A stretch of 64,000 nucleotides of DNA from Bdellovibrionota bacterium (GTDB lineage: Bacteria; Bdellovibrionota_C; UBA2361; CALJRW01): the NCBI GenBank assembly GCA_041740355.1, contig JBGSMD010000016.1:128001-192000 (forward strand). The letters run 5' to 3'. The position numbers and the translations under genes were made by a program. Of this stretch, positions 1 to 10,517 are shown in pieces. Position 1 is the first letter of the stretch; each line of letters starts with the position of its first letter. A model generated the notes under the pieces. It worked only from the letters and a program-made list of their open reading frames with translations, had not been told where the DNA came from and ran no database searches.

Positions 1-523
1 ATGGATATTTAATGGCAAAACAATTTGATCGGTCAAAGCAGTCGAAACTAAACCAGATGTAAAGACAAGAGTAAAAACGAGTCGTCCATTTGTTGGATTG
101 ATCACATTCCGCATCTTCATTTCACCATCACCAAAAGGAATATTATCAGGCCGAATCTTAATAACATAAGTACCAAAATATTCACCATCAAGCAGATCCC
201 ATACTGGACTTACCAAAGTAGATTTGGCACAAGCAATTCCATATGATTTTAATTTTTTTATAATCAGCTAAAGTTGTTTGGAACTTAGCAAGTAAAACTT
301 TATATCTAGGAGTTCTTTTCCCTTCTTTTAGTCCAGAAATTTTAGATTTAGCTTGTTCTATTTTACTATTCATATTTAACTTGAACTTTGCTTAGCGAAC
401 AACCTTAGCTCGAGGACTCAAAATCTACAGATCATTACAGTCATAGTTTTTAGCAATCGAAATTGCTGGTATTTCAGCGGATACTTGAATAGATAAAAAG
501 TATCTTGATAATATTATTTTCAT
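1..523 (-). pseudogene. Disrupted gene for a putative exported protein (runs off left edge)
   Basis: GGAG RBS then ATG at 523 (MKIILSRYF...). The same frame has two stops (TAG, TAA) and then the listed ORF 373..188. Removing one base from the T7 run at 253-259 opens a frame (KKLKSYGIACAKSTLVSPVWDLLDGEYFG...) to base 1. Confidence 0.65.
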
Positions 524-705
524 ATTTAACTCCAAACTCTTTATCTGCAATTATCAAATCAAGTTAAAATTTAAAACTTTCTACGAGGACATGGCTTACG
601 TTAATTAGTCAGATTATTAAATGCTTTATTAGCTAACCCTATTAATTACAATATAATATGATCATTTGCTTAAGAAAATATTTTTGGTAAAACTCTAATA
701 TAAAT

Positions 706-888
706 ATGGAGAATAAAATATCAGAAGGTCCTACAACAATACTTACAATTAGCATATCAAAAGAGGGAGCAGAAAAGCTACAAGAACCAGGCTCTTTGGA
801 AAAGCTTAATTTAATACTAGCTGAAGCAAATCTGCCTCCTGTTATATCCATTCGATCTGCAGAAAAAGCGGCAACCGATTCTAATTAA
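706..888 (+). CDS. Small hypothetical protein (60 aa)
   Basis: ATG-started ORF with protein-like composition in an otherwise AT-rich gap; no recognisable motif. Confidence 0.35.
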   Translation: MENKISEGPTTILTISISKEGAEKLQEPGSLEKLNLILAEANLPPVISIRSAEKAATDSN

Positions 889-945
889 ATCAGTTTTCTA
901 TCTATCAAGTTAACATTTTTACACTAAAAAAGTGAAACGCTCATG

Positions 946-3288
946 TTATCCCTGTTTTAATCCAATATAACGACGAAATCTTGGAACTTCACAGCGAAAC
1001 AATTCGCTACTATTAAGCGCAAGTTTTTTGCTTTCATAAATTGCGTTTGGATTTTGTTGAAATTGCAATAATCTCTTGGAAATTAATTGATAATCTGTGA
1101 AAGAAACATTTAATAATTTATTTGGGCATTGAAAATAAGCTTCTACTGTCCAATATTCAATGGCAAACGCTAAGGAATACAAAAAACTTAGCTGCCTAGC
1201 GTTCATTCTTTTTAGATGAGCGACTATTATTATATCCCCCATTCTAGAAAATACTACAAAGCGAGAGTTGTTTGGCACAAACAAAGTGTTCCGTCTAGTA
1301 TCAATTAATTTTTGATATACATCCCGAGCTTTTGATAGTTTTAACTTACCAATAGTTGCCAAATTCCCCTTTTTATCCAAGTAGATAAAATCTGTCTGCT
1401 GCTTAAATTTCGTTTCAGTTTTAATTTTAATAAGATTAACCAATTCTTCGATACTGAGTTTGTGTAATTTGGCATGCTTTAACTCTTGATAGCAGCGCTC
1501 TTCATGGAGCATTAAAAAAATACTCTCCATTAGTCTAATAGACTTTTTATCTGCACCGATCAGTCGAAATTGGCCTTTTACTTTTAGCAAGTCAACCTGT
1601 AGATCCTTTTGAAAATCTATTTTCATAACGAAACGAATTAAACCGGAAAGCTGAAATTGTAAATTTGCTATACCTAAATCACTATTTGCTGGAAACGTGA
1701 TCAACAATACTCCCGGAAAGATTTCAGTTTGCCAGGTTAAGGAATCACTAATCCGCTGAATGGATCTGCCAATGTAATTTGAATAGTAACTTTTAGTGTA
1801 TGATTTATCTAAAAAAATTATGGCAAATTCAAGTGGCTGATTGCTTGCGAGCGAGGCACGCGTGGCGGCTAACCAAGCTTTTAAACTAAGGGATTTAGTT
1901 CTTTGGGAAACTTGTTGCCGATAGATATTTAGCAATAAGCTCCGGCTAAAATCAATCCGTAATAGTACAATTAAAGAAGCCCCAATGATAATAACACTAT
2001 CTAATAAAATAATTCCTTGAATATTAGAGTTTGCTATATAGATTAAATAATACTGCAAAGGAATTGTAAAAAGTAAAAAATAAACTAACATAAATCTCTG
2101 GAACTGTATCTCCGTTTTAGTTACTTCAATTATCTTATAGCTTGTTTCAAAAAATGTTTTGGCTACAATAGCAATCAAAACTAAAACGAAGTAATTTAGT
2201 AAAACACTGGAACTATAACCAACCCAATAGGGAAATTTTACATAAAGTAGTGTTAAGATCGACAAGGTCAATCCTAAAAAAATTAATGTGTAAACAATCG
2301 TCCGTTTTGCATATTGATAGGCCTGCTCTAAGTGTCCTTCCTTTAAAGCAAGGTGAATATCCATTGCCAATGACCTAGATACTTGGATGGCAAAGCCAGA
2401 GAGAAAACTAATTGAAAAATATAAGAAAATATATTGTCGCCAATAGTAATTACTATGTAAATATAAGAAGCAACCGAGGCAAAGTAAATAAAGATAGTAG
2501 GCTACTGGTAATGAATAAATCTGGCGAAATACCCTAGATCGCAATAACCCTGTAAGCAAGTATCGTAACTGAATAGGCTTCCGATAGGTATAAAAATTAA
2601 ACCTCAAAGAGTCTAATGCAATTTTGATATGATAATTAATATATAATAAGTTTCCTATTAGATAGCCAAGTATATAACTATACTCCCCCATAAAGCGATA
2701 ACAACTTAGCATTAAAATGATGGGGATAATTCGATAAAAAGTAGAGATTAGAAACTCCTTTTTTAATCGTCTTTGAGTATAGGAAATTGCCCATAAAGCT
2801 AAACTTAAACTCTCTAAAGGCAAGATTATTAAGGTTGTGAAAGCAATCAGCAAAGACGATCGATCCATTTCTAAAAATATTGCTAAAGCAATAATTCCAA
2901 GACTATTTATTAAACCCAGCACTATACTAAAGTTAATAGCCAAGTAATAATAGTCATTGCATTTTTCTTGATTAAATTTCTTTTGAAATTCAACTAACTT
3001 TATCCTAAAAAACTGCATGCCTCCTTTTAGTAAACCTTTCAAACAAAAACTCAAAAAAATAATTATTGCTACTAGGCTAAAGAAGTTAGAGCGAAATAGA
3101 AAATAAATTATTGCCATCTCAAAGATTACAATCAGTTTAAAAACTAATCTCGATAGAAGTGGAAAACGAATTCTATATATTAAATATCTTAAAAAAGTAA
3201 AAAAACTCTGACCTTCCTTCCAACGTCTTAAGCTCTCGAACCTTTGCTTTTCTATTTTTGCTCTTAGGATGAACTTTTGAATTAACAT
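946..3288 (-). CDS. Polytopic membrane protein (~12 TM, MOP/Wzx/MATE flippase-like) with C-terminal cytoplasmic region; RT-associated
   Basis: Hydrophobic helices across ~aa 45-445 in two groups, then ~330 soluble residues. ATG overlaps the RT stop (TAATG at 3290-3286). Confidence 0.75.
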   Translation of the reverse strand: MLIQKFILRAKIEKQRFESLRRWKEGQSFFTFLRYLIYRIRFPLLSRLVFKLIVIFEMAIIYFLFRSNFFSLVAIIIFLSFCLKGLLKGGMQFFRIKLVEFQKKFNQEKCNDYYYLAINFSIVLGLINSLGIIALAIFLEMDRSSLLIAFTTLIILPLESLSLALWAISYTQRRLKKEFLISTFYRIIPIILMLSCYRFMGEYSYILGYLIGNLLYINYHIKIALDSLRFNFYTYRKPIQLRYLLTGLLRSRVFRQIYSLPVAYYLYLLCLGCFLYLHSNYYWRQYIFLYFSISFLSGFAIQVSRSLAMDIHLALKEGHLEQAYQYAKRTIVYTLIFLGLTLSILTLLYVKFPYWVGYSSSVLLNYFVLVLIAIVAKTFFETSYKIIEVTKTEIQFQRFMLVYFLLFTIPLQYYLIYIANSNIQGIILLDSVIIIGASLIVLLRIDFSRSLLLNIYRQQVSQRTKSLSLKAWLAATRASLASNQPLEFAIIFLDKSYTKSYYSNYIGRSIQRISDSLTWQTEIFPGVLLITFPANSDLGIANLQFQLSGLIRFVMKIDFQKDLQVDLLKVKGQFRLIGADKKSIRLMESIFLMLHEERCYQELKHAKLHKLSIEELVNLIKIKTETKFKQQTDFIYLDKKGNLATIGKLKLSKARDVYQKLIDTRRNTLFVPNNSRFVVFSRMGDIIIVAHLKRMNARQLSFLYSLAFAIEYWTVEAYFQCPNKLLNVSFTDYQLISKRLLQFQQNPNAIYESKKLALNSSELFRCEVPRFRRYIGLKQG

Positions 3289-4592
3289 TAATTTAATTGA
3301 TAATCTTTGTTGCGTTTCAATCTATTTCGCATATCTAATACGGAAACTAAACCTAGCTGACGAATCTTTCGATAGGTACAATACTTAAAAACCCGATCAT
3401 GAGAAGTTCCATAGATGAAACGCAAGGAAACTTTTGCCAACCACTTATCAAAAGATTTAAATGAGCTGCGATCATCACAGTGCATGATTAAATCATAAAA
3501 ATAATGATCTCTTCCAAGGTTTGTCAGATAATAATTCAAAGAGTTAATTATCGCTTGTAACAAATTAATCTTTGAGGAACAAAGTTTTTTATTTATGAAA
3601 TATGAATGTCTGGCAATCTCTAATATCTCTTGCTTTATGAAGTTGATCCGTCGATCTGATAAAAATAGTCCCCCCTCGGAGTTAAGCTTAAACCCTAGAT
3701 ATAAAAGTGGTTTATTTTTTATTACGCTACTAAAAACCCCTCTTTCCAATTTCTTTTCATTTAACTTGAGATTCAATTCAGAAAGTTGTTTTTCCAAGAA
3801 AAGACAGACATTGCTCACTACATTCTCTGATTCATGAGCAATTAAAAGATCGTCACCATAGCGACTATAAAAAACTTTGAAGTTATCTCTAATATCTCGA
3901 TCAACATTAACTAAGTAAAAATTTGCAATAAAACATGAGATCGAACAACCAGTTGGAACACTTGCAGATAAAAGAGTAATTTCTGATTGATTGGAAGTTC
4001 TAAATTGCGGACCTACTATCTCATTTAATAATTCCCAAAAATAATTTTCTTGTTTCGGGATTGCTAGTTTAAGCTTCGCAATTAAGATCTGTGGATTAAT
4101 ATGATCAAAATAGCTTTTGATATCACATTTCGCATAATATAAATCAACATCTGATTCCTTAATAAATTGTCGGCAATTCTTAATAGCTGAAATGCTAGAA
4201 AAACCTTTGCGATATGAATATAATGAATCTAAGTAATATTTATCTTGCAAAGCTCCTTGAAGAATATTTGCCAATGTAGCTTCAAAAATCTTATCGATCC
4301 AATTGCTTAGATAAATGGTTCTTTCCTTATTGCTTATTTTAACAATGATTTGCTTCTTAATTTCGGGGAAATATTGCTTTTGTTTGATTGCTTTACAGAT
4401 TTCATCAATAATTAAACCACGATATAATAAGCACCATTTTAAACTTACTCCTTCAGCCAAAGGACTGGAATCCAATTTTTCTTTATCTCCCATGCTTCTT
4501 TGATGAAGCTTAAAAAATACATCCTCATAGTGATCGCGACGAGCTAGTTCTTTTATTATATTTAATTTAGATAGTTTAATTGTTTTTATCAC
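3288..4592 (-). CDS. Reverse transcriptase (unclassified, UG/DRT-like)
   Basis: RT motifs KERTIYLSNWIDKIF, YSYRKG, KCDIKSYFDHI, VPTGCSISCFIANFYL, RYGDDLLI, YLGFKL. GTG start; no endonuclease domain. Confidence 0.93.
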   Translation of the reverse strand: MIKTIKLSKLNIIKELARRDHYEDVFFKLHQRSMGDKEKLDSSPLAEGVSLKWCLLYRGLIIDEICKAIKQKQYFPEIKKQIIVKISNKERTIYLSNWIDKIFEATLANILQGALQDKYYLDSLYSYRKGFSSISAIKNCRQFIKESDVDLYYAKCDIKSYFDHINPQILIAKLKLAIPKQENYFWELLNEIVGPQFRTSNQSEITLLSASVPTGCSISCFIANFYLVNVDRDIRDNFKVFYSRYGDDLLIAHESENVVSNVCLFLEKQLSELNLKLNEKKLERGVFSSVIKNKPLLYLGFKLNSEGGLFLSDRRINFIKQEILEIARHSYFINKKLCSSKINLLQAIINSLNYYLTNLGRDHYFYDLIMHCDDRSSFKSFDKWLAKVSLRFIYGTSHDRVFKYCTYRKIRQLGLVSVLDMRNRLKRNKDYQLN

Positions 4593-4615
4593 TAAAAGCT
4601 TGTTTGCAAGGAGTT

Positions 4616-4828
4616 AAAGTGGGGTTAGGGGAAATCGAAAGATTGTGTTGGAACAACTAAGTTTTTAAGTTAAGTAGTTAGCGAAGCTAAGTAGTTAGCT
4701 CAAAGAGTGAGTTATTTCAATATAGTCTGGATGTCTTATGAGTTGCAGGCTCCTCCCGTAGCACTTAATTGCAACTCCCGAGACATAAATGGGAAGGTGG
4801 TATTACCACAACACCCTAACCCTATTTC
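4616..4828 (-). ncRNA. Putative RT-associated structured ncRNA (template/primer candidate)
   Basis: Terminal inverted repeats GGGTTAGGG (4622-4630) and CCCTAACCC (4814-4822). Internal hairpins at 4797-4809, 4731-4786, 4678-4690, 4647-4657 and 4633-4644. GC-richer than its flanks and directly upstream of the RT. Confidence 0.7.
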
Positions 4829-4837
4829 AGATTAACA
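4829..4837 (-). promoter_or_regulatory. Possible extended -10 promoter (TGtTAATCT) for the ncRNA-RT transcript
   Basis: Minus strand reads CTGTTAATCTGAAATAGGG, which places the start site about at the 5' inverted repeat (4822-4823). AT-rich DNA makes chance matches likely. Confidence 0.35.
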
Positions 4838-4932
4838 GATTTTACCCTATTAATAAATTATGTTTTTAGATTAAGATGAAGAAAATACTTTAATCAATTA
4901 TGACGATCCTCCGATTTCTACTTTGATTTTTC

Positions 4933-6669
4933 ATGCGCATTATAGCTTTTCTCTTTTTCTTATTTATCCCACTAAGTGCGAGCTGCACAGAGGAGTTCAA
5001 TCTTCAACTATCAGAATTTATTGCTAATGCCACATGTTCCGACCTAGTACCCAAGAGCATCGAAGTTAAATTATCTGCGGGAGGTTTTATTTTTAGCATT
5101 CCAAGTCTTTATGATACCCCAATTATCTCTTCAACTCTGGTCTGTTACCAGCTACTCACATACCTCCATGATTACACAGAAGCATCTCCAGAATCACAAA
5201 TACTAACCTTTGAAGTTAGGGAATCTTCCGGAGAATTCCAATTCCTAGAGAAAAGCGGCCTTATAGATAGTCTTTGTTTAGATGCCGGACTATGTCAAAG
5301 GGGCTTTTTTGATTATTTTCGCTTGAATCAGAATTTGCTCAGTTGCCACGGTGCCAGAACTTTGGCTCTGTCCTTAGAAAGAGCTCTACCTAAGTTCTAT
5401 CGGACCAAGACAAAGATCGTCAAAAAAATGGGTCTTGAAATTCATCCCTTTGTTCCATTTATTCAAAAACTTGAGGAATACTTGAACGATCCTCAAGTTA
5501 AGAATATTTATGCTTCAACAATGAGCCTAGGGGATAAGAGCCTAGTAGAAGTTATTCCAAAACTTAATACTAAATTTTTAAATTTGAGCTTTGATGCCGG
5601 ATTGATGTTAATGAAAAAGCAAGAAAATTTATTTAATCAATTAATCGGTCAATTTTCAAATTTCCAAATAGCCCCAATGACTAGTGGCCAATATTATAAT
5701 AATATTTACCACTTAAAATTTATTACAAGTCCTGAAAATAACAAGTCAGTTGTTTCCTCTATGAATCTTTCTACTCCTGAGAGTACAACTTACATCGACT
5801 TTTTATATTTATTTGATGATTCAGAAATACAGCATGAATTAACTGCGATAACAAAATTAAATAAGCAGCGCTCTTGTCAAACCGAAGAAGATTTAAAGTG
5901 CCTTCTGCGTTTTGCAAACTCAAACTCCAATATTAGTAGTGAGTTTAATTCTTTATTGAAATCTTCCTGTCTAAATCAGGACCCTGTTGAAGATACCAGA
6001 TCAGGCTACTTTGCTTACAATGATGACACTGACTTAGAGCAATATATAATCAAATTTATAAACTCAGCAGAAAAAGAAATTATTCTAATGAGCTATAAAC
6101 TCTCTAATCCAAGCATACTTTCTGCGCTTCGCAAACGTCAAGCTGCTGGACTTAAGGTCTATCTGATTACTGCCTATAAGCCATATTACAATCCAAAGTT
6201 GTTTGATCATTTATATTATGCTGGGAAAGACGATCTTTCGATGATTCCCTATCCACACATGAAATTAATGATTAGCGATCGAGAACAAATGCTCTTTGGT
6301 TCAGGAAATTTTAGCGTCAATGCACTAACTCAATCAGCAGAGATGTTTGGAACTACCACAGATCAAAATGCTATCCAAAAAGCCCTTGCATATGCAGCTA
6401 CATTTGTTCAGGACTTTAACCCCAAACTTTCTAAAAACTTTTACAATCAATCCGTGGAAGATCCATTTTATTCCGTTAATTATTTAAAACAAAATTCATC
6501 GCTTCAAGTTGAATATACAGAGCCTAGCGGAATTAACTGGATGCCATATTACCGAAAGTTTAATCAGCAGGGAAAAGATATTTTAAATCAGTGCAAGATT
6601 AATAATCTTCACTTCGTTTCTAGCCAAAACTTTCAACAATGCTTAGACTTAATTAATAAAAAGTTTTAA
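4933..6669 (+). CDS. Secreted phospholipase D-superfamily protein (two HKD-type motifs)
   Basis: Signal peptide MRIIAFLFFLFIPLSASC; motifs YHLKFITSPENNKSVVSSMNLS and PHMKLMISDREQMLFGSGNFS; FINSAEKEIILMSYKLS segment typical of PLDc_2. Confidence 0.85.
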   Translation: MRIIAFLFFLFIPLSASCTEEFNLQLSEFIANATCSDLVPKSIEVKLSAGGFIFSIPSLYDTPIISSTLVCYQLLTYLHDYTEASPESQILTFEVRESSGEFQFLEKSGLIDSLCLDAGLCQRGFFDYFRLNQNLLSCHGARTLALSLERALPKFYRTKTKIVKKMGLEIHPFVPFIQKLEEYLNDPQVKNIYASTMSLGDKSLVEVIPKLNTKFLNLSFDAGLMLMKKQENLFNQLIGQFSNFQIAPMTSGQYYNNIYHLKFITSPENNKSVVSSMNLSTPESTTYIDFLYLFDDSEIQHELTAITKLNKQRSCQTEEDLKCLLRFANSNSNISSEFNSLLKSSCLNQDPVEDTRSGYFAYNDDTDLEQYIIKFINSAEKEIILMSYKLSNPSILSALRKRQAAGLKVYLITAYKPYYNPKLFDHLYYAGKDDLSMIPYPHMKLMISDREQMLFGSGNFSVNALTQSAEMFGTTTDQNAIQKALAYAATFVQDFNPKLSKNFYNQSVEDPFYSVNYLKQNSSLQVEYTEPSGINWMPYYRKFNQQGKDILNQCKINNLHFVSSQNFQQCLDLINKKF

Positions 6670-7091
6670 CAAGGAGATCGGGAACTTCTTGGACTTCTAA
6701 TGGGGCAAAGGCCACCTGTCATACTATTCCACCAGTAAGCCTTAGACTTTCCACTACCTTTTAGTGAATAAGCAACAGCAGTATATGAATTGTTATTATT
6801 ATTGGGGTCCGAGCTGACACTCATGTCAACATCCTGACCTAAGGTGAATCCAGGCAAAACATTATTACAATTGCTACTCAAGCAACTTGCATAACCAGAG
6901 ACTCCCTTGCCGACACTATCAGCATAGTAAGTTTCCTGAGCCGAGGCTACCTGTTGTAAAGTTGCGACTGAGGTAGTATCAGAAGCAAGCTTCCGGAATT
7001 CAAACATGTTTTCCATTGCGATAGATGCAATTATCGCCAAAATGGCGATGGTAACTAACAACTCAACTAAGGTAAAACCTCTACAGCTCAT
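6666..7091 (-). CDS. Type IV pilin-like protein
   Basis: Class III signal RG|FTLVELLVTIAILAIIASIA; Cys residues in the C-terminal half. Confidence 0.9.
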   Translation of the reverse strand: MSCRGFTLVELLVTIAILAIIASIAMENMFEFRKLASDTTSVATLQQVASAQETYYADSVGKGVSGYASCLSSNCNNVLPGFTLGQDVDMSVSSDPNNNNNSYTAVAYSLKGSGKSKAYWWNSMTGGLCPIRSPRSSRSPC

Positions 7092-7476
7092 ATTACAAAA
7101 TTTAAAAAGATAATTTACTAGATATCTAGGTGTAGATACTTAACTGTAAATGTTAAGCACACATAACTCGAACATAATCATCAGATACATTAATTTTTGA
7201 TTTAAATAATTTTTTATTATTTTTCAAAAAAATGATTCCTAACCCTAATACACTCCAATGATCAGTTACAGTTGAGTAGGTTTAATACTAAAGTTGCTAT
7301 ACTTTAGTACTATTATACCAAAACTAACAATATATTATATATAATTAGTGATAATAATATTATTATTAAGAATTGGGTATTATTACAATAATAATAAAAT
7401 TGTGATTATAAAATGATTTCCGCAACAAAGATGCTTTTAATCAATTATTAGAAGTAAGCTATCAATCCTTACTTAC

Positions 7477-8082
7477 TTAAGATTTATAATCTTTAGGCTT
7501 TACCTTTTGGGCAGTATGTTGGACAATTACCTTTCGTACCTCCTCTAAAATTGTAGATGTTGCATTGCGTTTGGTCGATCTAATCCTACCAATTTTTTGA
7601 AATTCCTCCGATCTTTGACTAAGATTCTCATCGATTAAATCGATATGGGATTGAACCTGATCTCGCCAAGATTTTAATTTAGTTTTCGCAGCGGGACAAA
7701 ATTTAATAATACTTGGAGCAGCAACCCCAAAACCATCTTTCTCAACAACAAAGTCAAGAATTTCCTTGGTCTCTTCGAATTTATTTTTGAGAACTAGCTG
7801 ATCACAAACTTTTAATACTTCTGTTAAAATTTCTGCAATTTCACAGAGTTCTTTAAATCCACTGTGCAACAATGTTGAAAAATAATCCCCATTAAATTGC
7901 TCGAGTAACTTTACTACCTCAGTAATTGAATTAACTTCATGGCGCAGCTCCTCTAAATCCTCAGCTATTTGAGGTGGAACAACTAAAGAATCTTCTCCAG
8001 CTTCTCGGTACTTTAAATAGCAATAAGCAGCAATTGACAAGAAAAGTCCAAAGCCACAAAAGAATGCTAAATAAACTAACAT
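7477..8082 (-). CDS. Hypothetical protein, single N-terminal TM plus helical domain
   Basis: 201-aa ORF with a hydrophobic N-terminus. Confidence 0.75.
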   Translation of the reverse strand: MLVYLAFFCGFGLFLSIAAYCYLKYREAGEDSLVVPPQIAEDLEELRHEVNSITEVVKLLEQFNGDYFSTLLHSGFKELCEIAEILTEVLKVCDQLVLKNKFEETKEILDFVVEKDGFGVAAPSIIKFCPAAKTKLKSWRDQVQSHIDLIDENLSQRSEEFQKIGRIRSTKRNATSTILEEVRKVIVQHTAQKVKPKDYKS

Positions 8083-8302
8083 CTTAAATATCGTTTAAAG
8101 TATTGCATCAGGGATAATAAAGAATTTAATCCTTAAGTGCGAAGCAAGTTGAAATTATTCCATTTCGCTAATTACCTAACTAGCTCCGACTATTTTTATA
8201 ATAGCATATCAGGCCTGAATCTACGACTATATATATTCTTAAATTTATCCTGAATATTAGCCAAGTTTTGGGTTCTAAGTTCGATTAAATTATAAGGCTC
8301 GC

Positions 8303-8698
8303 TTAAGTTTTAGCTCTTATAAAAGAGACCTGAAAGGTTTCCTTAGTAACAGCCTGATAATATGTCCCAACGAGTCGATCCTGAGCGGCATCATAGAGCA
8401 GATTATAATTAGAACCTGGATAATTAACATCTCGCAGTTCAATCATTATCTTAATATTTTCACCGTCTTGAGTTACATTTGCTTCTGATACATTAATTGA
8501 TTGTGGATTAAAATATAAAGCTTTCAAATTTCCATTTGTAGCAATATCTTCAATTGCGATAAGATAATTGCTATCAGTGCGTTTCCAGCGACCTTTAATT
8601 CTCTCGAGCAAAGAAGCATTATCAAGAGCAAATAAATCGCAACTAAGAGTTAACAATATAAATAATAAAGTAATTAGTAATTTTAAAGATTTATTCAT
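8303..8698 (-). CDS. Exported hypothetical beta-rich protein
   Basis: Signal peptide from the ATG at 8698 (MNKSLKLLITLLF); conserved-looking GRWKRTD...YFNPQSINV...YPGSNYNL motifs. Confidence 0.8.
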   Translation of the reverse strand: MNKSLKLLITLLFILLTLSCDLFALDNASLLERIKGRWKRTDSNYLIAIEDIATNGNLKALYFNPQSINVSEANVTQDGENIKIMIELRDVNYPGSNYNLLYDAAQDRLVGTYYQAVTKETFQVSFIRAKT

Positions 8699-9038
8699 AA
8701 TTAGCTCCAAGTTTACGATCTATAAAAATATTAACTTTAAAATATCTAATATTTTCTTATTCTTAATATGGACTAGTAAAAGTTTCAATTACTACCTGAT
8801 GAATTTTTCTAGTATATTTTTATTTTTAGTATAACTTAGAATTACAGGAGTATTTTCGTCCGAACTAAGATGCGCGAATTTATCAATACCAAATGTATTG
8901 CCATTGGCATTTTAGATTCTTCCTTCAGCTACATTATTGTCATCAATATAAATTTTTGCAATACCACTAAGCAATCCTCCCCCATTCCTAGATAGCTAAA
9001 AGATATATTAAGTGAAAAACATTTTTATTTTACTCAAG

Positions 9039-10517
9039 CTATCGATAATCAACTTTGTAAGGACATATCTTAAACCCAGGATTTTTTTTTAGTGCAAAAG
9101 TTATACGACGCATTAACTTCGGGTCCTGAAGACTCTCTTCTTTGTATGGTCCAATAATTAAGCGTTTTCTATCAGAACCTAAGTTCTGCTTCAACAACAT
9201 ATCTTCAATAAATCTTTCTCGATCTATTACAGGATCTGGCGTATGCCAGATTAAAAATACTAAGCTTTGCTCAGGGCATGTTTTAATCATGTTGTGCTTA
9301 GCATTCGACATCATCTGGACACGAAACTGGTAGCGTTCTAAAGTCTGGGGAATTGAGGTGTATAAATATACTAGCTGGCAAGTGATTAATATTAGAGCAA
9401 GAACTTTTTGCCATTTTCCAGATATCCCTAGCCAGCTAGTTAGTTGTTGAAGAACCGGCCAACCAAGCGAACAGATAAGCAAAAAAGATCCCCAAAAAGC
9501 AAACCAATAGCGGGAGCCGTATTGTGGCCAACCATCTTTAGAGTGAAAGGTATAGATAAAAACAATTAAAAAAATATGTAAGAATAAAACATAAAGATAT
9601 TTCGTTCGAAACACCTTATACAGTCCCAACATAAACAACAGAAAAGCTGGAAGTCCAATCAATAAAAGGAATTGATCGTAAAATAAGAAATAAAAGAAAC
9701 GATTAAAATTAGAAAAGAACTGTCGAAAGACATCTTGCCATTTTCCCAATATATGAAGCTCCGTATTTATATGTGATCCATATGTAGTTAGAGAAAACTT
9801 TCCCAACTGATAACTATTGTAAGAAATCACTAGGCCTATCCCAATTATTGCTAGAGTCGTAGTTATCAGTATTGGCACCAAACTTTTACGGACTCCATGA
9901 TAATGAACCAATCCAATCAAAATTGGAAATAAAAAGCAGGCAGTTTCAACAGGTCGTGTCAGGAAACCAAGGGCTGCGAATATTCCAATATAAAAAAGAT
10001 TCTTCTTTTGGCTTTGTTTGAGATATTCATAGAATGCCCAAATACCGGCAGTCGATATAAATAAAATTAATGGTTGAGCAAATAGAGATGCTGCGTATCC
10101 AAAGCTATAAGGTACAAAAGCGCCAAGTAATATTATTATTGCGGCATTTTTTTCATTAGTTAAATCCTTTGATAGGCGATATACAAAAAACAAGCTGAGA
10201 CACATTAGTATTGGATTTAAAACGAATGCTAATCCCAGCTTAATCGCACCAGCTAAAAGCAATGAAAATCCAGGGAAATATTTGGAGAATAAAATACCTC
10301 TTTCATAAACAATGTGTGGTTCAATAAATATATAGCTAAAGTTATTTGCTTTTATATAAAAGGACCCTTCTGAAAAAATCTTGGCCTGTATCCAGTAGCC
10401 AAATTCATCAAAACTATTGGGACGCATTTCAAAGATACAGCAGGAGATAAAAATGTAAAAAACTCCAGCGGCAATGATTACCAAGTATGTCATCTTGTCA
10501 AAAGTAGCTGGTTTCAT
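9039..10517 (-). CDS. GT-C fold membrane glycosyltransferase (ArnT/PMT-like)
   Basis: DE motif after TM1 (SFDEFGY), SKYFPG, TRP, YGSRY; many TM segments. Confidence 0.8.
   Translation of the reverse strand: MKPATFDKMTYLVIIAAGVFYIFISCCIFEMRPNSFDEFGYWIQAKIFSEGSFYIKANNFSYIFIEPHIVYERGILFSKYFPGFSLLLAGAIKLGLAFVLNPILMCLSLFFVYRLSKDLTNEKNAAIIILLGAFVPYSFGYAASLFAQPLILFISTAGIWAFYEYLKQSQKKNLFYIGIFAALGFLTRPVETACFLFPILIGLVHYHGVRKSLVPILITTTLAIIGIGLVISYNSYQLGKFSLTTYGSHINTELHILGKWQDVFRQFFSNFNRFFYFLFYDQFLLLIGLPAFLLFMLGLYKVFRTKYLYVLFLHIFLIVFIYTFHSKDGWPQYGSRYWFAFWGSFLLICSLGWPVLQQLTSWLGISGKWQKVLALILITCQLVYLYTSIPQTLERYQFRVQMMSNAKHNMIKTCPEQSLVFLIWHTPDPVIDRERFIEDMLLKQNLGSDRKRLIIGPYKEESLQDPKLMRRITFALKKNPGFKICPYKVDYR

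What the first reader, a model, noticed from the sequence alone, without database searches (positions are those of the whole stretch)
946..4830. Candidate new ncRNA + reverse transcriptase + flippase-like membrane protein system
Seen in sequence: three co-oriented parts on the minus strand, namely a ~200-nt structured non-coding segment, a 434-aa RT about 25 nt downstream, and a 780-aa ~12-TM protein whose ATG overlaps the RT stop (TAATG, translational coupling). Established: retrons and several UG/DRT defence RTs use an ncRNA-RT-effector layout, and their membrane effectors are usually small (2TM/SLATT). This RT lacks the retron NAxxH and VTG signatures and the DGR GNxxSQ motif, and no avd, TR/VR, intron RNA or cas1 is visible. 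Inference: a dedicated system in which RT-made cDNA gates, or is handled by, a large transporter-like membrane protein, possibly for anti-phage defence or nucleic-acid export. I do not know of a described system with this partner.
Basis: partly seen in the sequence, partly recalled or inferred. Interest (0 to 1): 0.92.

Follow-up and report, generated by a model that had tools for sequence, protein, structure and literature searches.

The report
Reverse transcriptase coupled to membrane transporter
A bacterial reverse transcriptase gene is always paired with a large transporter-like membrane protein, here also with an exported phospholipase-D-type enzyme and a folded RNA-like element, which together look like an undescribed cell-envelope system.

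Summary
The RT (3288-4592, minus) and the 780-aa membrane protein (946-3288, minus, TAATG overlap) are real. The pairing is not chance. In 21 of 21 related loci with enough sequence to judge, from at least three phyla, the RT gene lies directly before this membrane protein. One further short contig has them divergent.

The membrane protein is a 12-helix MOP/MATE/MurJ/Wzx-fold transporter. It carries a cytoplasmic degenerate GGDEF-like domain and has no Pfam, NCBIfam or PADLOC family.

It encodes an exported, cysteine-rich, two-lobed PLD-superfamily enzyme. Homologues follow the membrane gene in six related loci, and one homologue is fused to it.

The RT keeps its catalytic residues but belongs clearly to no modelled UG/DRT, retron or group II class.

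The 210-nt structured element (about 4616-4836) is real and single-copy. It folds far better on the plus strand, antisense to the RT. Three paralogous loci share a separately conserved RNA-like element, but covariance models do not link it to the window's.

Function is inferred. My leading reading is that RT-made DNA controls, or is passed to, the transporter. No description was found in five literature searches.

The parts
3288..4592 (-). Reverse transcriptase, 434 aa. Catalytic YGDD at nt 3849-3860. No extra domain.
   Evidence: ORF. Pfam RVT_1 1.2e-27. D157, D247 and D248 are invariant in 8 family members. The best PADLOC profile, RT_UG26, gives only 112 bits and is nearly tied with a generic RT model.
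946..3288 (-). 780-aa membrane protein. Residues 1-462 (nt 1903-3288) form the 12-TM MOP/MATE-fold domain. Residues 463-579 (nt 1552-1902) form a degenerate GGDEF-like domain. Residues 581-718 (nt 1135-1548) form a second alpha/beta domain.
   Evidence: ORF. No Pfam, PADLOC or NCBIfam hit. AlphaFold pLDDT 84.9. Foldseek: MATE1 9r1f at E 6.6e-7, TMt 0.68. VIA-align: MATE Z 29.9, WzxE Z 21, MurJ Z 19.1, and GGDEF domains Z 8-9.2 over 111-116 residues.
4616..4836 (.). Single-copy structured element closed by a stem of 11-14 bp, with three internal hairpins. It is probably an RNA read on the plus strand, but the strand is not shown by data.
   Evidence: Plus strand z -5.72, minus strand z -1.86. 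No other copy in the genome. No Rfam match. The closest related locus, L058, has a similar stem-closed element upstream of its RT, and 4 of 9 aligned pairs are compensatory. Covariance models from paralogous loci do not detect it.
4933..6669 (+). Exported two-lobed PLD-superfamily enzyme, 578 aa. It has an N-terminal signal peptide, an HKD-like motif 1 at nt 5707-5769 and a full HKD motif 2 at nt 6256-6312.
   Evidence: PLDc_2 at 5.1e-16, 59.2 bits against a cut-off of 27. Homologues (34-37% identity to this one) follow the membrane gene in paralogous loci. H260, K262, S276, M277 and N278 and several Cys are invariant in 12 sequences. AlphaFold pLDDT 83.2. Bilobed PLD folds match at E about 1e-12 to 1e-13. 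The nearest solved sequences are NucT and Nuc.
4832..4861 (+). Promoter-like hexamers between the structured element and the PLD-like gene.
   Evidence: Consensus scan only. The region holds fewer such sites than its shuffles, so this is weak.

Best explanation
This is a member of a conserved, previously undescribed system centred on a reverse transcriptase.

Its obligate core has two parts. One is a catalytically intact cytoplasmic RT. The other is an inner-membrane protein, translationally coupled to the RT, with a MOP-fold 12-helix transporter domain and a cytoplasmic degenerate GGDEF-like module.

A third component, which varies between loci, is always exported. In this clade it is a two-lobed PLD-type phosphodiesterase.

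A structured RNA encoded beside the genes probably serves as the RT's template or scaffold.

Proposed mechanism (inferred, not shown):
1. The RT makes DNA from the adjacent RNA.
2. The DNA, or the RT-DNA complex, is read by the cytoplasmic GGDEF-like module.
3. That module switches the transporter.
4. The transporter, together with the periplasmic PLD enzyme, acts on the cell envelope.

The most likely purpose is a conditional, defence-type response to infection.

I hold the anatomy and gene linkage at about 0.9. The confidence given below is for the gating and defence mechanism.
For: Linkage:
- RT is followed directly by the membrane gene in 21 of 21 co-oriented loci with room to judge.
- This includes 6 of 6 loci found by searching with the membrane protein alone: G084, G088, G097, G260 twice, and the second G127 copy.
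- RT hits scoring under 120 bits to the family profile have no such neighbour: 4 of 4 and 4 of 4.

Activity and folds:
- The RT catalytic Asp residues are invariant.
- The membrane protein has a MOP fold plus a GGDEF-like fold.
- ESM features point to GGDEF/GAF/PelD-like clusters. This is a lead only, with scores of 0.83-0.90.

The PLD partner:
- It is homologous across 7 loci.
- One family member (P0069) is fused to a PLDc_2 domain.

Behaviour as an accessory unit:
- Synteny between G000:C63 and G001 starts 2 nt before the RT start codon and ends about 150 nt after the PLD gene, while the flanks differ.
- Occurrence is patchy: 6 of 124 genomes in the phylum and 2 of 301 sampled in another phylum.
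- Two or three divergent copies occur per genome.

RNA:
- A model built only from the C63 and G1 downstream element finds the C11 element at 39.6 bits, E 7.4e-7. The next best hit scores 12.8 bits.

RT relatives:
- The nearest RT profiles and structures are class 2 UG RTs (UG26, UG17, DRT9), CRISPR-associated RTs and group II intron RTs.
- Passages of PMC12632851 propose that DRT10 cDNA regulates membrane effectors.
Against: - No experiment or RNA data exist for this locus.
- The genes examined around it are not defence genes: pilin-like, PMT_2, hydrolase, pirin and unknowns. The Legionellales locus sits beside a fumarase and a HemY gene.
- No relative was found in viral contigs.
- The membrane protein and the PLD gene match no PADLOC system as such. 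There are no hits for the former and only weak DrmC-like hits for the latter.
- An intact MOP fold with near-invariant Arg and Tyr residues, and HlyD fusions in 7 of the 9 long family members examined, fit a working exporter better than a suicide pore.
- The window's RNA element is not detected by models built from the paralogous elements.
- The G001 locus has only 44 nt upstream of its RT.
Confidence: 0.42

Rival explanations
1. Export rather than gating. The RT makes a DNA, or a DNA-linked molecule, that the MOP transporter carries across the inner membrane. In the periplasm it is processed by the PLD-type phosphodiesterase. In other lineages it is passed on through a fused HlyD adaptor. This would work like a synthase-dependent secretion system for a nucleic acid.
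For: - MOP-fold proteins are substrate translocators. The matches are MATE Z 29.9, WzxE Z 21 and MurJ Z 19.1.
- 7 of the 9 long family members examined carry a C-terminal HlyD membrane-fusion domain, and one carries PLDc_2.
- An exported partner (signal peptides and lipoboxes read by eye) was identified in 14 of the 21 loci; in Legionellales none was found.
- The PLD model matches PLD3/PLD4 single-stranded-DNA exonucleases among others. Its closest solved sequences are the nucleases NucT and Nuc.
- Arg and Tyr residues are near-invariant in the family (Y35, R39, R95, Y170, Y312) and R174 is invariant.
Against: - I know of no precedent for a MOP transporter moving DNA (recalled, not searched).
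- The PLD fold matches phospholipases, PPK1 and phosphatidylserine synthase equally well, so the substrate is open.
Confidence: 0.27
2. An envelope or lipid pathway in which the transporter and PLD enzyme handle a lipid-linked or phospholipid substrate. The RT serves only as a regulator or sensor. The system is unrelated to phage defence.
For: - The MurJ/Wzx-like fold.
- The PLD fold is shared with phospholipase D and phosphatidylserine synthase.
- The neighbours in the window include a PMT_2 glycosyltransferase-like membrane protein.
- The flanks are housekeeping genes in the Legionellales locus.
Against: - The RT keeps all catalytic residues and is translationally coupled in every locus, which suggests its product matters.
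- The patchy, multi-copy distribution is unlike a core envelope pathway.
Confidence: 0.15
3. An ordinary member of a described RT group (UG26 or another class 2 UG/DRT, retron, or group II intron) with incidental neighbours.
For: RT_UG26 is the top PADLOC profile, at 5.7e-33 over nearly its full length.
Against: - The score is only 112 bits and nearly tied with a generic RT model (104.6) and UG17 (89.2). Across 8 family members, the generic RT, UG26, Drt9, UG17 and UG4 profiles all match with best E-values of 1e-28 to 1e-33.
- NCBIfam group II maturase scores 102.9 against a cut-off of 300. Retron St85 scores 56.5 against 235. Drt2 scores 63.5 against 390.
- The neighbours are conserved, not incidental.
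- Passages of PMC9226505 report UG26 with a YcjD-like gene in 9 of 35 members and mention no membrane or PLD partner. Its supplementary tables could not be read.
Confidence: 0.06

Closest known systems
Class 2 UG/DRT reverse-transcriptase systems (UG26; UG17 = DRT10 with SLATT; UG28 = DRT9)
   Same: Stand-alone RT of about 430 aa with no extra domain. These give the best profile and structure matches. There is an adjacent structured non-coding element and a membrane partner, as in DRT10-SLATT (passages of PMC9226505 and PMC12632851).
   Different: Scores are far too low and too evenly spread for membership in any one group. The partner is a 650-820-aa MOP-fold transporter with a GGDEF-like module plus an exported enzyme, not a small 2TM/SLATT protein. 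No defence-island context was seen.
MOP-superfamily transporters (MATE, MurJ, Wzx)
   Same: 12-helix fold over residues 25-460: Z 29.9 to 17.4 and Foldseek TMt 0.56-0.69.
   Different: No sequence-family match in Pfam or NCBIfam. It carries a cytoplasmic extension of about 300 aa and is always encoded behind an RT.
Degenerate GGDEF receptor modules on membrane proteins, such as PelD, which acts with the MOP-like PelG in Pel polysaccharide export (recalled knowledge)
   Same: GGDEF fold at residues 463-579, Z 8-9.2 against about 30 GGDEF entries. ESM features point to GGDEF/GAF/PelD_GGDEF clusters, a lead only.
   Different: Read by eye, there is no GG(D/E)EF motif, and the region is poorly conserved. 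Binding of c-di-GMP or of any other ligand is untested.
PLD-superfamily phosphodiesterases: the exported nucleases Nuc and NucT, the PLD3/PLD4 ssDNA exonucleases, and bacterial phospholipase D
   Same: PLDc_2 domain above its cut-off. NucT 6ehi and Nuc 1byr are the nearest solved sequences. The bilobed fold matches PLD, PLD3/4, F13 and PssA.
   Different: 578 aa with two lobes in one chain. The N-lobe motif lacks the Asp. The protein is cysteine-rich with a signal peptide. NCBIfam NucT and DrmC models score far below their cut-offs. The substrate is unknown.
Tripartite efflux and type I secretion adaptors (HlyD family)
   Same: 7 of the 9 long members of the membrane-protein family examined end in HlyD_3/HlyD_D23 domains.
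   Different: The window's protein has no HlyD domain. No outer-membrane channel gene was identified.
Hailong-type control of a membrane effector by a synthesised DNA (seen only in a passage and reference entry of PMC12632851)
   Same: The concept is shared: an enzyme-made DNA controls a membrane protein.
   Different: Different enzyme class and a different membrane protein. Nothing was tested here.

Membership tests
UG26 (class 2 UG/Abi RT) | Strong, specific match to the group's RT profile | tested here: inconclusive
   RT_UG26 gives 112.2 bits, against 104.6 for a generic RT model and 89.2 for UG17. Across 8 members, UG26, generic RT, Drt9, UG17 and UG4 all match, with best E-values of 1e-28 to 1e-33. 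No reference tree was available.
UG26 (class 2 UG/Abi RT) | Reported accessory gene (YcjD/Vsr-like, 9 of 35 members; passage of PMC9226505) | tested here: not met
   No such domain was found among the neighbours scanned. The conserved neighbours are the MOP-like and PLD-like genes.
Class 2 UG/DRT systems in general | ncRNA that templates the RT | tested here: inconclusive
   The window has a structured element. A conserved element is shared by three paralogous loci. No link between the two was shown, and no RNA data exist.
Class 2 UG/DRT systems in general | Anti-phage phenotype | not testable with these tools
   Needs plaque assays.
Retron | Retron RT family match and msr/msd RNA | tested here: not met
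   NF038233 scores 56.5 bits against a cut-off of 235. No Rfam retron RNA in 1-9000.
Group II intron | Maturase-RT equivalog and intron RNA domains | tested here: not met
   TIGR04416 scores 102.9 bits against a cut-off of 300. No Rfam intron match in 1-9000 at E up to 1.
Diversity-generating retroelement | avd gene and TR/VR repeat pair | not tested
   No repeat search for TR/VR was run. No avd-like hit appeared among the neighbours scanned with Pfam.
MOP superfamily (MATE/MurJ/Wzx) | 12-TM fold of two 6-helix bundles | tested here: met
   VIA Z 29.9, rmsd 3.8 over 429 residues to MATE1. WzxE Z 21 and MurJ Z 19.1. Foldseek E 6.6e-7.
MOP superfamily (MATE/MurJ/Wzx) | Sequence membership of a curated family (MatE, MurJ, polysaccharide transporter) | tested here: not met
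   No Pfam or NCBIfam hit at E up to 0.1.
GGDEF domain | Fold | tested here: met
   Residues 463-579 give Z 8-9.2, rmsd 3.0-3.9, 110-116 aligned, against about 30 GGDEF entries. Z is near the tool's stated background of 7-8, but the hits are consistent.
GGDEF domain | GG(D/E)EF catalytic motif | tested here: not met
   No such motif in the sequence (read by eye). No Pfam GGDEF hit.
PLD superfamily | HxK(x)4D(x)6GSxN motif and PLD fold | tested here: met
   PLDc_2 gives 59.2 bits against a cut-off of 27. The C-lobe motif lies at residues 442-460. The N-lobe HxK...SMN motif is invariant but lacks the Asp. Bilobed fold matches.
NucT / DISARM DrmC | Equivalog-level match | tested here: not met
   NucT models score 19-35 bits against cut-offs of 211-351. 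DrmC scores 33.8 against 133.

The most novel reading that the evidence does not exclude
The RT is the polymerase of a synthase-dependent secretion machine. It makes a DNA, or a DNA-tagged carrier, at the membrane. The MOP-fold partner translocates it. The exported PLD-type phosphodiesterase, or in other lineages a fused HlyD adaptor, then processes it or passes it outward. This would be a dedicated route for placing reverse-transcribed DNA in the cell envelope or outside the cell.
Probability: 0.2. Interest if true: 0.95.

Novelty: new variant of a known kind. Interest (0 to 1): 0.8.

Why it matters
Bacterial RT systems described so far pair the RT with small pore-forming proteins or soluble effectors. 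Here an active RT is locked, across several phyla, to a full-size transporter with a nucleotide-sensor-like cytoplasmic module and an exported phosphodiesterase or secretion adaptor. If the RT product gates the transporter, this is a new effector class for nucleic-acid-controlled immunity. If the product is the cargo, it would be the first sign that bacteria reverse-transcribe DNA for export. Either way it gives a function-testable context to a membrane-protein family that has no annotation. That family has 218 representative clusters among 1.84 billion proteins.

Tried and rejected
**Searches that found nothing or were not significant**
- Rfam scan of 1-9000 at E up to 1: nothing.
- Word-based homologue search: only 3 distant RT hits and no membrane-protein hit apart from the window's own proteins.
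- All-against-all comparison of 480-nt windows (450 nt upstream plus the first 30 nt of the RT) in 16 loci: no similarity beyond 13-nt chance words.
- nhmmer with single elements found only the queries themselves. The alignment query in the same call returned nothing, not even its own sequences, so that run probably failed.
- No PLD-gene remnant downstream of the membrane gene in window 1-1000.
- Viral contigs: 134 pattern matches, none a relative.

**Covariance models**
- R1 (three paralogous elements) and R2 (two elements) do not detect the window's element at E up to 10 and E up to 5 respectively.
- R3 (69-position core) gives 4750-4820 (+) only 6.6 bits, E 9.2, rank 9 of 9.
- None detects L058, and R2 finds no significant match in G097 or G088.
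- By eye, the window's plus-strand element, the L058 antisense element and the paralogous elements share a layout. This is a C-rich stretch, a purine-rich stretch, a short hairpin, four or five bases, then the closing strand. It was a post hoc reading and is not statistically supported.

**Jobs without a usable answer**
- Complex prediction of RT with the C-terminal domain of the membrane protein: no verdict, score 0.00.
- Sequencing runs: no RNA holder listed. There were four DNA holders in one study, coded X1-X4.
- My first shuffle script timed out. The rewritten one used only 30 shuffles per sequence (15), so its z-scores are rough.

**Calls that added nothing or were not followed up**
- The phylum search repeated the class search on the same 124 genomes.
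- Locus L013 (G037:C8) was fetched but never examined. The weaker RT hits (G037, G033, G010, G004 and others) lie in genomes where the membrane-family profile found nothing.

**Closed or unavailable**
- Supplementary tables of PMC9226505, which list RT-associated protein clusters, could not be read and might list this partner.

Full report
**What is in the window**

Two overlapping minus-strand ORFs are present as described: an RT of 434 aa at 3288..4592 and a membrane protein of 780 aa at 946..3288. The junction reads TAATG, so the RT stop overlaps the next ATG.

The RT matches Pfam RVT_1 at 1.2e-27. Its catalytic aspartates, D157 and the YGDD at 245-248, are invariant in eight family members. 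The membrane protein has no match in Pfam, PADLOC or NCBIfam.

The 340-nt gap upstream of the RT holds a stem-closed element at about 4616-4836.
- On the RT strand it folds hardly better than shuffled sequence: z -1.86, 7 of 200 shuffles as good.
- On the plus strand it is strongly structured: -85.4 kcal/mol, z -5.72, 0 of 200.
- It is single-copy in the genome and matches no Rfam family.

The divergent gene 4933..6669 (+) encodes a 578-aa protein with a PLDc_2 domain, 59.2 bits against a cut-off of 27.

The window's own genome has two more copies of the module, and a genome of the same genus has one. In all three the order is RT, then a membrane protein of about 740 aa, then a protein of about 575 aa, all on one strand.

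All three proteins are homologous between loci. Identities range from 24% to 71% between loci; the window's own proteins are 24-37% identical to their counterparts. The window's copy has only the PLD gene turned round. No remnant of a PLD gene lies downstream of the membrane gene.

**How firm the gene linkage is**

- Searching the phylum's 124 species genomes with the membrane-protein profile found it in 6 genomes, at 8 loci. Each locus has an RT directly upstream.
- A scan of one genome per species with an RT alignment returned 13 loci. Two are known loci found again, judged by equal contig lengths. Six are new, from records titled Sorangium, Polyangiaceae, Francisellaceae, Legionellales, a 'delta proteobacterium' and Bdellovibrionales. 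All six have the membrane gene immediately after the RT. One 1.65-kb contig has both genes divergent. Four loci with weak RT scores (49-104 bits) have no such neighbour.
- Searching other genomes with the membrane profile alone found three more loci, all with an RT upstream.
- A metagenome scan added four loci with the pair, one contig too short to judge, and four weaker RT hits without the partner.

In total, 21 of 21 co-oriented loci show RT followed by the membrane gene. They overlap or lie within a few bases, judged from longest-ORF coordinates.

Occurrence is sparse: 6 of 124 genomes here, and 2 of 301 sampled in another phylum. Two or three divergent copies can occur in one genome.

The module also behaves as a unit. 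Similarity between G000:C63 and G001 starts 2 nt before the RT start codon and stops about 150 nt after the PLD gene. The flanking genes are arranged differently.

**What the proteins are**

*Membrane protein.* With an 84-sequence alignment, AlphaFold gives pLDDT 84.9 and pTM 0.83.
- Residues 25-460 match MOP-superfamily transporters. VIA-align gives MATE1 Z 29.9 (rmsd 3.8 over 429 residues), WzxE Z 21 and MurJ Z 19.1. Foldseek gives E 6.6e-7 and TMt up to 0.69.
- Residues 463-579 match about 30 GGDEF domains at Z 8-9.2. No GG(D/E)EF motif is present, read by eye.
- Residues 581-718 match a phytochrome at Z 7.2, which is weak.
- Language-model features point to GGDEF/GAF/PelD-like clusters. 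This is a lead only.
- The N-terminus is rich in Lys and Arg, which fits a cytoplasmic location for both termini. This is an inference.

*The membrane-protein family.* It has 218 representative clusters at E up to 1e-3 among 1.84 billion proteins. Of the nine long members examined, seven end in HlyD membrane-fusion domains, one in a PLDc_2 domain and one in a cNMP-binding domain.

*PLD-like protein.*
- It has an N-terminal signal peptide, read by eye in all homologues, and invariant cysteines.
- It has two PLD motifs. One is an N-lobe HxK...SMN motif without the Asp. The other is a complete C-lobe HxK(x)4D(x)6GSGN motif.
- Its model (pLDDT 83.2) matches two-lobed PLD-superfamily enzymes of several activities. 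These include phospholipase D, PPK1, vaccinia F13, the PLD3/PLD4 single-stranded-DNA exonucleases and phosphatidylserine synthase.
- The nearest solved sequences are the nucleases NucT and Nuc. The substrate is open.

*Other third partners.* These also look exported.
- A lipoprotein family lies upstream of the RT in five loci.
- A separate type lies in G012 and G084.
- A small protein with a lipobox lies upstream in the Francisellaceae locus, read by eye only.
- None was found in the Legionellales locus, which is flanked by fumarase and HemY genes.

**Where the RT belongs**

- The top PADLOC profile is RT_UG26, but at only 112 bits, beside a generic RT model at 104.6 and UG17 at 89.2.
- Across eight family members, the generic RT, UG26, Drt9, UG17 and UG4 profiles all match, with best E-values of 1e-28 to 1e-33.
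- NCBIfam group II maturase, retron, Drt2 and Drt3a models all score far below their cut-offs.
- Against solved structures, the family profile scores 72-89 bits to a DRT9-like RT, a Cas6-RT-Cas1 protein and group II intron RTs.

I therefore treat it as an RT lineage near class 2 UG and group II-like RTs, not assignable to a described group without a reference tree.

Passages of PMC9226505 describe UG26 as a 35-member group, sometimes with a YcjD-like gene and with an inconclusive defence prediction. No membrane or PLD partner is mentioned. Its supplementary cluster tables could not be read.

**The RNA question**

Upstream regions of the RT genes show no shared sequence. The G001 locus has only 44 nt upstream of its RT.

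Downstream of the PLD gene, the C63 and G001 loci share an element of about 135 nt. It is about 90% identical between them, against 66% for the module as a whole. It is closed by a 10-bp stem. A covariance model built from these two alone finds a related element in the C11 locus. That element lies upstream of the RT on the opposite strand, at 39.6 bits and E 7.4e-7. The next best hit scores 12.8 bits. So an RNA-like element travels with the module, but its place and orientation vary.

None of three models detects the window's element. The window's closest relative is L058, with 38% RT identity and the same three genes. It has a 311-nt stem-closed element upstream of its RT. Aligned with the window's plus strand, 4 of its 9 predicted pairs are compensatory. 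That rests on two sequences only. No RNA sequencing run is listed for this DNA.

**How it most likely works**

Shown by the analyses above:
- An active-looking RT, a MOP-fold membrane protein with a GGDEF-like cytoplasmic module, and an exported partner are inherited together.
- An RNA-like element accompanies them in several loci.

Inferred:
- The RT copies the adjacent RNA into DNA.
- That DNA either controls the transporter through its cytoplasmic module (my leading reading, 0.42) or is itself the cargo (0.27).

For a defence-type switch:
- The RT's nearest relatives are defence RTs.
- Distribution is patchy and multi-copy.
- The module moves as a unit.
- The third component is swappable.

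For true transport:
- The MOP fold is intact, with conserved Arg and Tyr residues.
- HlyD fusions occur in the family.
- The partner is exported in 14 of the 21 loci (signal peptides and lipoboxes read by eye).
- No defence context was seen.
- No relative was found in viral contigs.

**Novelty**

Five full-text searches found no paper describing an RT or DRT partnered with a MOP, MATE, MurJ or Wzx protein, or an RT with a PLD partner. The library lacks most subscription journals, and supplements were closed. I rate this a new variant of the known kind 'RT plus RNA plus effector'. Its partner set is unlike any described.

Noticed in passing
window 6666-7091 (-): A 141-aa ORF with a type IV pilin-like N-terminal methylation motif (PF07963, 1.7e-8). 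It converges on the PLD-like gene and overlaps its end by 4 nt.
   Followed up: no
window 374-945: A stretch of about 570 nt, AT-rich and poor in ORFs, directly downstream of the membrane gene. The minus strand folds to -118 kcal/mol against -89 for the plus strand. No PLD remnant and no covariance-model hit.
   Followed up: partly
window 9360-9450: A near-perfect inverted repeat (arms of about 10 nt) inside the PMT_2-like gene region. It surfaced as a spurious covariance-model hit on both strands.
   Followed up: no
G000:C11 (L009 6124-11382) and G000:C63 (L010 6275-11515): The same genome carries three copies of the whole module. The other two are about 30-31% identical to the window's RT and 35% to each other. 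This implies old duplication or repeated acquisition.
   Followed up: partly
L010 2-11671 against L011: Between two genomes of one genus, the module sits on different sides of a 778-aa flanking gene. Similarity starts 2 nt before the RT start codon.
   Followed up: partly
P0075 (881 aa), P0069 (1316 aa): Two members of the membrane-protein family carry fusions. One is fused to a cyclic-nucleotide-binding domain and one to a PLDc_2 domain. The first hints at control by small nucleotides.
   Followed up: no
L027 6176-7768, L031 5924-7558, L054 3240-4718, L056 10904-12472, L036 6650-7744: A family of cysteine-rich proteins lies directly upstream of the RT in five loci of other lineages; three (Sorangium, Polyangiaceae, Bdellovibrionales) show a lipobox-like N-terminus, while the G260 and G127 longest ORFs do not. 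Two of them have a weak MopE-like motif.
   Followed up: partly
L013 (G037:C8): An RT hit at 24% identity, in a genome where the membrane-family profile found nothing. It was fetched but not examined.
   Followed up: no
window 9039-10517 (-): A 492-aa protein with a PMT_2 (glycosyltransferase family 39-like) domain lies about 2.4 kb from the module. A possible envelope link was not examined.
   Followed up: no
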